From contig OX597814.1 in NCBI GenBank assembly GCA_951406725.2, forward strand, positions 57,288,001 through 57,352,000: a stretch of DNA of 64,000 bases, in the 5' to 3' direction. Within the stretch, counting starts at the first letter, position 1, and the number at the start of each line of letters is the position of its first letter. The DNA comes from Octopus vulgaris. Lineage: Eukaryota. Below, in pieces: positions 4,121 through 58,555 of the stretch. Below the pieces are notes generated by a model. That model was not told the DNA's origin and made no database searches. It was given only the letters and a program-made list of their open reading frames with translations. Both the position numbers and the translations under genes were made by a program.

Positions 4121-4197
4121 TATAGAAGGAGTTCTACAGGACTAGAACTGTTTCATTCAAAAGGAAACAGTTCTAGTCCTGTAGAAGCTCCTTCTAT
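4121..4197. repeat. near-perfect palindrome (~34-bp arms, 9-nt loop)
   Basis: TATAGAAGGAGTTCTACAGGACTAGAACTGTTTC-attcaaaag-GAAACAGTTCTAGTCCTGTAGAAGCTCCTTCTATA, with one bulge. Confidence 0.9.
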
Positions 4198-4339
4198 AAA
4201 ATAAATTAATTTACTCTGCTATGTATTGAGTACCTTATTTACTGTGGTTAACCCCGACTCAACCCGGGGCCTACATATATATATATATATATATATATAT
4301 CTGTAAATGTAATAGGTGACACAATTATTCGGTAGCCAT

Positions 4340-4400
4340 GATAAAACTCCGAGTTTCGGATGCCGGGGTGTAAATCCACGCCGCTATGTCTTCAGTTATC
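4340..4400 (-). ncRNA. minimal type I hammerhead ribozyme motif (PLE pLTR); copies at 12451-12511 and 20595-20655
   Basis: Minus strand: GATAA-CTGAAGA-(stem II, partly eroded)-GAAA-CTCGGAG-TT-TTATC. Stem I is GATAA/TTATC. It sits within an inverted repeat at 4318-4445. Confidence 0.75.
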
Positions 4401-6262
4401 TGGCCATCGGAAAAATGCTAACAGAGTTTTATCATGGCTACCGAATAATTGTCTCATATTACATTTACAGATAAATTCCTCTATTTACATAATATCGAAG
4501 TCTCGTTTATTCATTTGTTGTCTTACCATTTTATCAATATATATATATATATATATACATGCATTTATGGTTACAGGACGTCACCAATGGTGCAAGTAAC
4601 ATGAAATGCGTAAACAAACGAGGAAAAACGAGGGGAACATATAAAAAACGATAAAAAATAGAAAGAAGGACAAGTAGACACAGAGAAAAGAACCTTCATC
4701 AGTTGTTGGTTGTCTACCTACTCCTCATTTCGAGCGTTCAACGACAATATCAGTCTTTAAAGACAGTTGCTCCCATACATTCCAAAATAAAATTTAGGAT
4801 TTATGGAGGATCAAAGTTGGGAACAAAAAGTGACAACGGAGACATATAAGGGAACCGAACAAGAAGGAAACAGTGAACGCTGAGAAAAACATTTTTTTTT
4901 TGAAAAGAGAAAAGATAGAAGAGAGAGAAAAACACGTCTGTTTTTTTAAACCTCTGTGCAGAAAAAGAAAGATCTTCACGCGAGGAAAAGAAAGATGGAT
5001 GATGGTCATGTGTGAGCAACGAGAGAGAGAGGAAAATAGAGAAAGATGGGAGATAAAAGCCAGAATACCAGGAACACAATACAGGTATTAGAATAAATCA
5101 TTTTGACAAACAAAACTAATATCCATGAGAAAATGAATGCGTTCAAATTTCTTTGGTCTTAAATTTTAAAGAGGAACAACAATGCACCAACGTTCGTCAA
5201 AGTTCCCAAAACCTCGACATCATCTCATTTCAATGATGACAGTGGTCCATTATTGTCACGTTTCTCTAGTAAGTAAAAAGGATCATGGAAATAATTCTGA
5301 AATTGAAAAAAATTAATATTAATACTACATTTGAAATTGTTTAATGGTTGTGTTCAAATTCCTTTTATAGTTTGTCATATAGCGTTTGTATGAATGTGTT
5401 TGTGTGTGTGCACATATAAATATGTGTGTGTATGTGTGTGTGAGTTGCTTTTGTGTTCTTATTTTATGGAGTTGTATGAAGGATAGTAGAATTATCAGTT
5501 AATGATTTATTTAACCTAAATTTGTTTTGCTCTAATTCATACCATTTCTTTACAATTAGCTTATACTTAAATAAAAGTGCATGAAAATGCCTGGGGCGTG
5601 TGTACTTCATAAATAAGTGGGGTTTGTTAAGTCAGGATTGAGGCGTTACTCTTCTCTCCTGTTATTATCATTGTGATGAAAACTATACGCATCGTTTCCT
5701 TATTACTCAAACCCTCTGTGTGTGTGCGTGTGTGTGTGTGTCTGCGTGTGTGTGTGTGTGTGTGTGCATGTGTGTGTGTGTGTTTGTGTGTGTGTGTTTA
5801 TGATTGGCTAATTAATTATTTCGGTCTGTCAAGTCTTACACATAAATTTTTGGTAAATCCTATAGTCAAGAAGAAAACATCTAACCAAAGTACTGCACCC
5901 TGAGATCGAACGAAGAGCTATATTGTTTCGTTGCATTTAGCCACACGGCTATAACTGTTGGGCATTTCCACCTCTCTCTCCCTCCTCTCTCTGTCTTGCT
6001 TCCTCCAAGTACACCGGGTAAAGGATCCTCAAGCTGTTTCCTTACATTTTTCAGCCGTCCCGATTTCTCAATAAGATAAATTGATCTTAGAATCTCTGTC
6101 ATTTGCGTAGCTTAATTTCTATGATGTGTCGATATTTTCCTAGTATTTGCATACCAGTTAGAGAGTAAGATGGCAGAGCCGAATTGTCCGCAAATATTCG
6201 TTAATCCCTTTCGGGAATTACAATCAATTTCGTCTGTTGAATTCATCTTATGTCTTTCTTTT

Positions 6263-6395
6263 ACAGGGCTTAGAAAAAATGAAGGATTGCTGCAATAAGT
6301 GTGTGAATCTGGGATGGGAATATGTTGAATAAAACTTTGATTAAATTATCTTCCTCTATTTTCTTTTACTAAAATCCAAGTACTTTTCTGCACTT
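6263..6395 (+). mobile_element. mariner-MITE fragment (also in copies 2 and 3)
   Basis: Reverse-complement similarity to 2225-2350. Confidence 0.55.
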
Positions 6396-6807
6396 CCTCT
6401 TGTATACACGCATTTTATCAAAAGTGACAGTACACTTAGATCTACCCCCGCGTGAATTAAATAGTTAGTCATGAATTAAATAGTTAGCAATTTATATATG
6501 AGTGGTTTGAACTCGAATGGTTGTATATCGATGATGTGATAAATGTCTTGAAAAACTAACTTTAGTATGTAGGGATCTACAAATATTTATATGCGCATAT
6601 CGCCCCTAAATTACTGGACGTAAGCAAGCAAGTACCGATTGTCAGTTGTAGAGACAAACCAATACATACGCTATCACATATACACACACATGCACACACA
6701 CACACACGCACACACACACAGAGGGCTTGAGTAATAAGGAAACGATGCGTATAGTTTTCATCACAATACACTATCACATATACACCCTTTCATATGTATA
6801 TATATAT

Positions 6808-56252: not shown

Positions 56253-57489
56253 GAAAGAATTAAATGGTGTGAAATGGGTTGAAATAAAGTGGAAGTAAGG
56301 GGTAGCGTCAGTGAGGGAAGAGAAAGAGGCAGAAAGGGAGAGAAAGAAAGAAAGAAGAGAGAGAGGGGGAGACAGATTAATAAATAGATAGAGAGAGAGA
56401 GAGAGAGAGAGAGAGGTGTATGGTACTGGTAACGCACACATACACACACACACGTATATATATGAACAGAGATGAAAATTAACAGGTCGTTTTATTTCCA
56501 CCAGTCAGTTTTGTGAATTCAGCAAAAAGATAAGAAAAAACTTCCATCATTGATACAAAGTTTTTTGCACCTGAGAAGTTTCACGGAATATTTTTTGTTT
56601 CTTTTTGAGCATATTTTCCGAAAGTTTATACTGAAATCTTTTTGAACGAATATGTGTTATATCATGTAAATTCCGAATATACAAAACTTTGAAAATGAAA
56701 CAAATATGAGCGACTTGTTCAGAAATATCCGCCAGTGGGGAACAATTCTCAAAAATAGCCCCCAATTGTTTTCCCCAAAAACAATTCCTATGTCCTCGGA
56801 ATCTACATAGTCTGCGGTATATTTGTAAAGAATTTCATTAAAAATATCCATTATTTTGGAAGACGAATTGAAGTGGACTCCAGGAAAATTTCCGAAATTA
56901 CCCACCCCAACCTCTCCTAAAACACTTTCGCCCAAGAAAATTTTGTATATTCGGAATCTACATGATATAACACATATTCGTAGACAATTTCATTAAAAAT
57001 ATCCATTTTTCTGAAAGTTATGATCATCCAAAGTCGGTGGCGCGGAAATCTATAGTTATGCCGATTCAAAAATACAGCAGTGCAAGTAAAAAATAAGTTT
57101 GTCAATATTCAGAGGAATATTTAAAATTTGAATTTATACCCGCTATCCACGATAAACTGTCACCAGGTTATTGGCGAAAAAACTTAGATCTTGTGAATGC
57201 TTCAAAGTCCGTCGGAAAAGATTTTTCACAAATTTCTTTATAATCGTAATCTATGCTGGTTGAAAGGTTTTTGTATCAAATTTCACTAAAAAAACAAAAC
57301 ATTTTCCTAAAAGTTATGAGAGAAAAACTCGGATTTTGTGAATTTTCCGAAGTCCTCCGCCCCCACGTTGATTTCCACGCATCTTTTTTCATATTCGTTT
57401 CCTACACATTTTTTTACGTCCGTTGCACTATTTTTTAAAAACTTTGTTTCCGGTTAATATTGTAAACATTACCAAATTTTGAATAACAA

Positions 57490-57571
57490 AAATTATATAT
57501 CACAAGGGGGCATCAGGATTTTAGAAATGATTCGGTGGGGTGCATGGCCAAAAATAGGTTGAGAATCACTG
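57490..57571. mobile_element. hAT (Charlie-like) MITE end
   Basis: Ends in AGGTTGAGAATCACTG, the reverse complement of a CAGTG(G/A)TTCTCAACC-type terminal inverted repeat. Confidence 0.5.
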
Positions 57572-57692
57572 GTCTATAAGAATAATCTTCTCAAGACGAA
57601 TATCGCAGTTTGGAGGGCTTTCGATATATACACACTTCATGTATGAATACATCGCTGATTAACAATTAAGTACATTTTCAACTCTTTATATT

Positions 57693-57880
57693 TTACCTTT
57701 TACTTGTTTCAGTCATTAGATTGCGGTCATACTGGGGCACCGCCTTGAAGAATTTCTAGTCGAATGAATTGAACCCAGTACATATTCTTTTGTTAAACTT
57801 AAAACTTAACTTATCGAACCGCTACGTTACGCAAACACACCAACAACGCTGGGGGAACTAACATAGACAAGAAAACACAC
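57693..57880 (-). mobile_element. SINE 3' half, eroded
   Basis: TTTACTTGTTTCAGTCATT...GCACCGCC...GAACCGCTA.GTTACG. Confidence 0.65.
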
Positions 57881-58252
57881 ACACATAGATATACGCACGC
57901 ACATAGATACACACAAACACGTACAAACACACAATCACGCGCGCGCATACACACACACAAACACACACATATAAGTTCAGAATTCAAGTGAATCAGGTCC
58001 TTAAATGGTAAAGCACCAAGGTCGGCTCAGTGGAATCGTTATCGTGTTCAAAACAAAATTAGAGGAACATATACGTACGAAGTAAAGATGGATATATATT
58101 CCAGTTGCATGTACGATCACAAGCGTCCGGCTGAATATAACACGAACCTCAAGGCTGCACTTGGGTACAAACGCTGCACCAATTGTAGTACACCCAATAG
58201 ACTCCAGATCTACGCTACTTACAGGTTCCGAATAAGGTGATTAATAAGCAAA

Positions 58253-58555
58253 TAACAGATGGATAGTGTTTCACTCACTACAGTTGTTTCAGACGTGTTT
58301 TATATTGATGAATAGAATTATTGCATCGTGCGCAAAAAAAAAAACCCGTTTTCATCAGGTGAATATATTCACAAATTAAACATTAAAAAAAAATTCTACG
58401 AATACAAGTATGTTTTTTAATGTTTAATTCGCGCATATATTCACCTGATGAAAACGGGTTTTTTTAATTTTTTGCATGATATAAAAATTCTATTTATCAA
58501 AATCAAAACACGTCCGAAACAGCTGTGGAGAGTGAACCACTATCCATCTGTTGTT
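58253..58555. repeat. ~300-bp inverted repeat made of two divergent hammerhead-bearing arms (HHRs at 58275-58362 minus and 58441-58531 plus)
   Basis: Left arm (minus): TCAC-CTGATGA...CGTCT-GAAA-CAACTG-TA-GTGA. Right arm (plus): TCAC-CTGATGA...CGTCC-GAAA-CAGCTG-TG-GAGA. Confidence 0.8.

What the first reader, a model, noticed from the sequence alone, without database searches (positions are those of the whole stretch)
4121..58555. Size series of 'inverted 3' end + forward copy' insertions centred on hammerhead boxes
Seen: the palindromes at 4121-4197 (arms start GAAA-CAG-TT), 4318-4445, 31207-31321 (GAAA-TAGCTG-TT), 58253-58555, 32410-35250 and 41982-45990 all have divergent inverted arms that contain or begin at an HHR-like GAAA box. 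40251-40489 may be another. Most are flanked by TA/CA microsatellites. Known: PLE insertions often carry an inverted upstream pLTR. Inference: the many apparent MITE-like palindromes here are minimal PLE retro-insertions (77 bp to 4 kb) made by one template-switch mechanism, possibly a non-autonomous ribozyme-bearing class.
Basis: partly seen in the sequence, partly recalled or inferred. Interest (0 to 1): 0.75.

Follow-up and report, generated by a model that had tools for sequence, protein, structure and literature searches.

The report
Penelope retroelement palindromes recording RNA caps
Six of the seven mirror-image repeats are head-to-head insertions of known Penelope-type jumping genes (one is an unrelated hairpin), and in one family the copies stop at the first letter of the ribozyme with one extra G, which likely records the cap of the RNA and suggests that each arm is copied separately from the start of the transcript.

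Summary
All seven palindromes are real. Six are Penelope-like element (PLE) insertions: an inverted 5'-truncated copy ending at a fixed short end, joined head-to-head to a forward copy ending at a longer tail, mostly in (TA)n, with a junction that differs per locus. They are not MITEs. 31207-31321 is a fixed internal hairpin of a Helitron-like repeat without a ribozyme. Families A, B, D and G are clipped ends of GIY-YIG (Hydra-type) PLEs; only E is a non-coding 566-nt retrozyme-like unit. 'Centred on hammerheads' holds for A, loosely for B, not for D, E, F, G. This scan already noted the layout and the short-end/tail rule on other DNA. New here: in family A, 5' ends pile up at the first base of hammerhead helix I, 29 nt behind a TATA-like box, with a non-templated G (43 of 69 copies joined straight to (TA)n; 73 loci carry it on both arms). 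This is the pattern expected if two cDNAs run off the capped 5' end of uncleaved sense RNA. No RNA start site was measured.

The parts
4120..4163 (-). Family A inverted short arm (short end about +23 to helix II; positions are relative to the predicted hammerhead cleavage site)
4164..4274 (+). Family A forward arm from the GAAA box to the tail end (+91), then (TA)n; this copy lacks the CUGANGA box
4301..4423 (-). Family B inverted short arm with a type I hammerhead-like motif (core 4395-4354, predicted GUU site); identical copies at 12412 and 20556
4424..4536 (+). Family B forward arm (-4 to +112) with 64-nt tail, then (TA)n
4156..28524 (+). 8.1-kb tandem triplication (over 99% identical) whose units 2 and 3 begin at the apex of palindrome A
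31206..31324 (.). Fixed internal hairpin of a ~0.9-kb non-autonomous Helitron-like family (window copy about 30894-31748, rearranged, termini missing); no hammerhead; not part of the PLE series
32405..33197 (-). F: old inverted 3' end of a canonical (DKG, GxxF) PLE; hammerhead-like motif with UUGAAAA core near 32470-32500
33198..35400 (+). F: decayed forward copy (broken RT and GIY-YIG); its own 3' end is missing, replaced by other sequence
40152..40492 (.). Family E: tail arm on the left (+291 to +82), short arm on the right (+53 to +190); both stop short of the family's hammerhead; family is a 566-nt non-coding unit
40511..41180 (-). Longer solo family B copy with an intact hammerhead motif (40589-40539)
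41985..42864 (-). Family G inverted short arm (+42 to about -846), hammerhead at 42094-42019
42865..45990 (+). Family G forward 5'-truncated Hydra-type PLE: asparagine-rich linker and GIY-YIG (43271-44452), hammerhead 45761-45836, 112-nt tail, (TA)n
57969..58555 (.). Family D: tail arm on the left (to about +318), short arm on the right (to about +35); long-helix-II hammerhead on each arm (58358-58279 minus; core 58445 plus)

Best explanation
Six palindromes are PLE insertions made of two 5'-truncated copies joined head-to-head, one ending at a short end and one at a tail end, and they are likely made when the PLE protein primes two separate cDNAs at the two cut strands of a (TA)n target. Shown: fixed unequal outer ends, per-locus junctions, short overlaps at many junctions, coding parents for A, B, D, G. 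Shown for family A: the full-length element starts in the hammerhead and its tail runs into the ORF; 5' ends pile up at -44, the first base of helix I; a TATA-like box starts 29 nt upstream; an extra G precedes -44. Inferred: -44 is the capped transcription start, the two fixed ends are the two internal reverse-transcription start sites known from Poseidon_Ac, short copies are run-off cDNAs from the 5' end of uncleaved sense mRNA, and the G is the copied cap. Hammerhead centring would then follow from the ribozyme lying at the very start of the transcript, not from its cleavage.
For: A, 70 position-ordered loci: 53 have an adjacent inverted arm, 51 of these 53 end at +21..+25, none at +91. 64 of 123 arm ends lie in -45..-38 against 2 in -53..-46; 28 of 57 near forward ends lie in -45..-42, p 3e-25 against uniform. 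Forward ends at the cleavage site: 0 of 70. (T/C)ATAAAT starts 29 nt before -44 in 30 of 35 long copies, across subfamilies. Genome-wide, copies joined straight to (TA)n at -44: G 43, C 11, TA continuation 15 of 69 (counted by eye). 860 copies have G at -45; 73 loci have the extra base on both arms. Short arm reaches more than 5 nt further 5' than the tail arm in 11 of 53, and 3 of 53 pairs share no sequence. Short+tail pairing: E 18 of 19, D 10 of 10. L388 is near full length, starts at -36, tail continues into the ORF. Two internal start sites, both strands extended, uncleaved RNA used: PMC11167929. Extra G attributed to the cap in L1/SVA: PMC3287187.
Against: No RNA 5' end was measured; only contigs of guessed RNA runs were on hand. 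The extra G is also what a 1-nt fold-back extension on helix I would add (base +7 is C), or a terminal transferase adding C. 59 of the first 100 G rows read GG, nearly all CAGG that the inverted arm can supply; 4 of 100 fit a longer fold-back (by eye). One long copy (L338) has G at -45 as a variant, and one copy scored at -44 on both arms (L244) runs about 13 nt further in a diverged subfamily. The AG at -44/-43 follows a pyrimidine-rich stretch, and in D. virilis Penelope the intron ends at helix I (PMC4209133). The sharp wall is seen only in A: B has a soft limit near -64..-91 (10 of 30; 2 beyond), D none at helix I, G none (6 of 30 inside the ribozyme). 17 of 70 A loci and 15 of 30 B loci have no adjacent inverted arm.
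Confidence: 0.7

Rival explanations
1. One cDNA folds back on a hammerhead helix (or primes itself on an antisense RNA) and copies itself; the endonuclease trims one arm to the short end. This is the first reader's single template switch and the self-priming idea of PMC3846280.
For: 31 of 53 A pairs end within 5 nt of each other and many overlap at the AGCT palindrome or helix II; -44 is exactly the outer edge of helix I; 4 of 100 G rows look like helix I fold-back.
Against: Tail-less arm often longer than the tail arm (A 11 of 53; G e.g. -884/-219, -976/-219, -2690/-609) and 3 pairs share no sequence; single G straight after (TA)n with no inverted arm in 43 copies; TATA-like box at fixed distance.
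Confidence: 0.15
2. The layout is ordinary PLE dual-end insertion, but the -44 wall has another cause than a capped start: a splice site, or a reverse transcriptase stop at the end of helix I with a non-templated base.
For: Intron end maps to the 5' end of helix I in D. virilis Penelope; AG at -44/-43; no RNA data.
Against: No shared upstream exon in 100 listed G junctions; no matching donor site just upstream in long copies; many copies read through -44 (53 of 100 rows), as expected for cDNAs started at the 3' copy.
Confidence: 0.12
3. The small palindromes are MITEs or a self-propagating palindromic non-autonomous class that moves as a unit.
For: Thousands of copies and fixed outer ends; a few junction types recur at many loci.
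Against: Outer ends unequal, junctions differ per locus, arms continue into GIY-YIG ORFs; recurring junctions are those predicted from the fixed 5' end; no nested palindromes seen in the 70 A loci.
Confidence: 0.03

Closest known systems
Hydra clade of C-terminal EN+ PLEs (Craig et al. 2021, PMC8557442; passages, section 11, supplement rows incl. Hydra-1_Obim)
   Same: RWR and DKT motifs, CxCX5C linker, CxxC and CxH in the endonuclease, hammerhead, (TA)n target, inverted 5'-truncated copy and a tail at one end.
   Different: Tails here are 64-280 nt, not 30-40; G has a long asparagine-rich insert; my A, B and G motifs were not found in the supplement's Hydra entries; no start-site wall or extra G is described in the passages read.
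Poseidon_Ac in vitro (Frangieh et al. 2024, PMC11167929; parts 1-2 of 4 read)
   Same: Two internal reverse-transcription start sites that define the tail, located near the ORF start; both target strands extended; uncleaved RNA used.
   Different: In vitro, other clade; the parts read do not explain inverted insertions or report run-off at a capped end.
Adineta vaga Penelope inverted pLTRs (Arkhipova et al. 2013, PMC3846280; passages)
   Same: Head-to-head inverted pLTR, tail on one arm, putative TATA and initiator in the pLTR, asparagine-rich ORF inserts.
   Different: Proposes self-priming on an antisense template; the extra G on the sense side of both arms points to sense templates.
Animal non-LTR retrozymes (PMC7229834, passages; bioRxiv 10.64898/2026.07.22.740005, part 1 of 5)
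   Same: Family E: non-coding unit with a type I hammerhead, head-to-tail repeats, PLE-linked.
   Different: E unit is 566 nt, seen as partial tandems and two-armed insertions; circular RNA not tested.
L1/SVA extra G and twin priming (extra G: PMC3287187, passages; twin priming: recalled)
   Same: Non-templated G at full-length 5' ends attributed to the cap; two primed cDNAs joined by short overlaps.
   Different: L1 inversions use non-overlapping parts of one RNA; here both arms usually copy the same stretch, from two fixed internal starts.
HLE1 Helitrons (PMC11417382, passages)
   Same: Family C: 5' TC, 3' hairpin plus CTAG, between A and T, read on the minus strand.
   Different: Has a long internal hairpin; no autonomous partner was sought.

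Membership tests
EN+ PLE insertion | Arms collinear with an RT/GIY-YIG ORF upstream | tested here: met
   A L159, L388; B 7 of 30 loci; D L117; G window and L392; F window. Not met for E or C.
EN+ PLE insertion | Type I hammerhead in the 3' repeat | tested here: met
   Motif and helices read in A, B, D, E, G families; F has a UUGAAAA variant core. Cleavage not tested.
EN+ PLE insertion | Tail at one end, inverted 5'-truncated copy, variable junction | tested here: met
Hydra clade | RWK-type and DKT motifs | tested here: met
   A parent has RWR and DKT; not covered in the B, D and G copies held.
Hydra clade | CxCX5C linker; CxxC and CxH in the endonuclease | tested here: met
   A, G; B linker and CxxC, with CPR/CPY at the CxH place; D linker.
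Hydra clade | Placement in the RT phylogeny | not tested
   No reference RT set was held as sequence.
MITE | Fixed symmetric ends and fixed interior, with target duplication | tested here: not met
   Unequal ends, variable junction; target duplications cannot be read inside (TA)n.
Non-LTR retrozyme (family E) | Non-coding head-to-tail unit with a type I hammerhead | tested here: met
   566-nt unit, longest stop-free frame 56 codons; 27 of 30 copies read past -182 into the spacer, 20 on into their own tail, none into an ORF.
Non-LTR retrozyme (family E) | Self-cleavage and circular monomer RNA | not testable with these tools
   Needs RNA work.
HLE1 Helitron (family C) | 5' TC, 3' hairpin + CTRR, A-T insertion | tested here: met
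   Seen in the copies whose ends were printed (about 10 of 29 for the CTAG end, fewer for the TC end); window copy lacks the termini.
Capped polymerase II start at -44 (family A) | RNA 5' ends mapped at -44 | not testable with these tools
   Only contigs were available.

The most novel reading that the evidence does not exclude
Probability: 0.5. Interest if true: 0.75.

Novelty: new member of a known kind. Interest (0 to 1): 0.55.

Why it matters
How PLEs make inverted and tandem insertions, whether the template is sense or antisense, and what the hammerhead does are named as open in PMC8557442, PMC3846280 and PMC11167929. Family A gives a countable genomic record that bears on all three and names one base (-44) that CAGE or an in vitro assay can test. 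It also warns that many apparent MITEs in this genome are retro-insertions, and one of them coincides with the breakpoint of an 8.1-kb triplication.

Tried and rejected
Rfam scan: no hammerhead hit, uninformative. RNA folding of eight motifs: only G (z -3.15) and the C hairpin folded better than shuffles; A, B, D, E, F did not, so folding energy gives no support for those ribozymes. Pfam found GIY-YIG only weakly (G, below cut-off) and no RT family in the A parent. Sequencing runs: no RNA holder listed, contigs only; no start site could be read. Whole-element queries are biased towards the window's own junction and were not used for junction statistics. Hypothesis that junctions mark the cleavage site: rejected for A (0 of 70 forward, 3 of 53 inverted ends, these ambiguous); one E copy (L513) starts at the cleavage site. 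Upstream-exon explanation: not supported. A wall at helix I in D: not seen. Literature searches for a start-site or cap signature in PLE insertions listed no such paper; subscription papers and bioRxiv supplements were not visible. Our-findings search for the cap idea returned nothing, nor did the family A sequence.
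Full report
Setting. The window is G000:C1:57288001-57352000 in a 2.8-Gb genome, octopus-like by earlier scan notes. I label the palindromes A (4121), B (4318), C (31207), F (32410), E (40251), G (41982), D (58253). Positions such as -44 or +91 are relative to each family's predicted hammerhead cleavage site.

Observation. All seven inverted repeats are present. Rfam gave no hammerhead. A strict type I descriptor of my own gave 7 hits in the window and 0 in 20 shuffles: G both arms, D left arm, a B copy at 40589 and an unlisted family at 9100/17239/25394. 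B at 4395 has both boxes. The window copy of A holds only the GAAA half; C and the window copy of E hold no CUGANGA box.

Families. Each palindrome belongs to a dispersed family: first-look candidates A 582, B 2580, C 1323, D 314, E 1432, G 2759, F 1989 (lower bounds); 2146 exact A tail motifs. In A, B, D, E, G the outer ends are fixed but unequal: A +23/+91, B +48/+112, D about +35/+318, E about +190/+291, G +42/+154, mostly in (TA)n, while the inner junction differs per locus. Where an arm-only query left the choice of end open, pairs were short+tail in 18 of 19 E loci and 10 of 10 D loci. This is the PLE layout of PMC8557442 Fig. 2 (passages), and not a MITE.

Parents. A runs upstream into a GIY-YIG ORF (L159); L388 is near full length, starts at -36 and its tail continues into the ORF, with RWR, DKT, CxCX5C, CxxC and CxH motifs of the Hydra clade. 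B (7 of 30 loci), D (L117) and G (window, L392) also have GIY-YIG parents with the Hydra-type linker. F is an old canonical PLE with DKG whose forward copy has lost its 3' end. E differs: 27 of 30 long copies read into a 92-nt spacer and 20 on into their own tail, giving a 566-nt unit without a long frame; it is retrozyme-like (PMC7229834 passages). C is none of these: all 29 other copies share the same apex and flanks, inside a ~0.9-kb repeat that on the minus strand starts TC and ends hairpin-CTAG between A and T, as HLE1 Helitrons do.

Are apices centred on the hammerhead? I sampled by tail motif in genome order, so that selection did not depend on the junction. A: 70 loci from the first 74 listed rows (three window rows skipped; one region held two rows and one was scored). 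53 have an adjacent inverted arm; in 41 both arms end inside the ribozyme. B: 30 of 408; 15 with an adjacent inverted arm; forward ends spread from +39 to -91, 10 of them in -64..-91, 2 beyond. G: 30 of 138; forward ends from +116 to beyond -1370, 6 inside the ribozyme. E junctions lie mostly downstream of the ribozyme; D copies read through helix I. So centring is true for A, loose for B, and false for the rest.

The wall in family A. 15 of 70 forward ends fall exactly at -44, and 64 of 123 arm ends in -45..-38 against 2 in the next eight bases; one locus (L244) is mis-scored and runs about 13 nt further. -44 is the first base of helix I. No forward end lies at the cleavage site. In 30 of 35 long copies (T/C)ATAAAT starts 29 nt before -44, the other 5 lacking it, although the sequence between differs among subfamilies; the template base at -45 is T, C or A, and G in one long copy. 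Of the first 100 of 5543 genome matches, 53 read on into template, 20 overlap the partner at AGCT, 4 at CAG, 22 have G and 1 has T (by eye). 860 matches have G at -45; of the first 100, 41 have a single G, 59 GG (nearly all CAGG, available from the partner arm), and 4 fit a longer helix I fold-back (by eye). The cleanest set is copies joined straight to (TA)n: G in 43 of 69, C in 11, plain TA continuation in 15. 73 loci have the extra base on both arms. An extra G at full-length L1 and SVA ends is attributed to copying of the cap (PMC3287187 passages).

Mechanism. Inferred: transcription starts at -44 from a TATA promoter in the upstream repeat; the mRNA holds the two reverse-transcription start sites twice, near its 5' end and at its 3' end. 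Poseidon_Ac starts internally at two sites that define the tail, extends both target strands and uses uncleaved RNA (PMC11167929). Two cDNAs primed on opposite strands of a cut (TA)n, one from each site, and joined at their 3' ends give the observed layout. Starts at the 5' copy run off at the cap and give the 110-160-bp palindromes; starts at the 3' copy give the long series, seen as opposite-strand pairs 26 bp to over 8 kb apart. A single fold-back cannot supply a tail to an arm copied from the tail-less cDNA, yet the tail-less arm is the longer in 11 of 53 A pairs and 3 pairs share no sequence. This argues against antisense self-priming (PMC3846280 passages). Weak points: no RNA start was measured; helix I fold-back or terminal transferase could add the same base; the D. 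virilis intron ends at helix I (PMC4209133 sections 6 and 9) and its promoter is internal and TATA-less (PMC2377424 passages), so family A would differ from it; the sharp wall was found in one of five families examined.

Novelty. The elements are new members of known kinds, and this scan had noted the layout, the Hydra assignment and the short-end/tail rule elsewhere in the genome; I had reached these first. The start-site wall with the extra G was not in the papers listed nor in the scan's notes. Subscription papers and bioRxiv supplements were not visible.

Noticed in passing
window 4156-28524: An 8.1-kb tandem triplication starts at the apex of palindrome A; the junction carries a short repeat of the apex sequence, as if the hairpin had been the break point. 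Could also be an assembly matter.
   Followed up: partly
   Followed up: no
window 32470-32500 minus: Family F hammerhead-like core reads UUGAAAA in most of 30 copies, a U3-A8 type change of the usual C3-G8 pair (pairing rule recalled).
   Followed up: partly
window 43271-44452; L392: Family G ORF holds a long asparagine-rich insert between RT and endonuclease, like the inserts described in Adineta PLEs (PMC3846280).
   Followed up: partly
window 35719-36820: A further decayed GIY-YIG fragment with a hammerhead remnant follows element F.
   Followed up: no
window 50890-50935 minus: Minimal hammerhead-like remnant with a CCGACGA core next to a LINE.
   Followed up: no
window 11289-12230 (three copies) and on past 28524: Decayed Gypsy-like gag/protease fragment cut by the triplication junction.
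   Followed up: no
window 48060-50653; 61191-61664: A LINE with endonuclease and RT frames, flanked by a 105-bp inverted pair (47683/51117); a DDE_3 transposase fragment.
   Followed up: no
   Followed up: no
L034-L041 (G000:C11:81657316-81658220): Four tandem copies of one family A palindrome with its flank, a local amplification.
   Followed up: no
L513: One family E copy begins exactly at the predicted cleavage site of the upstream hammerhead.
   Followed up: no
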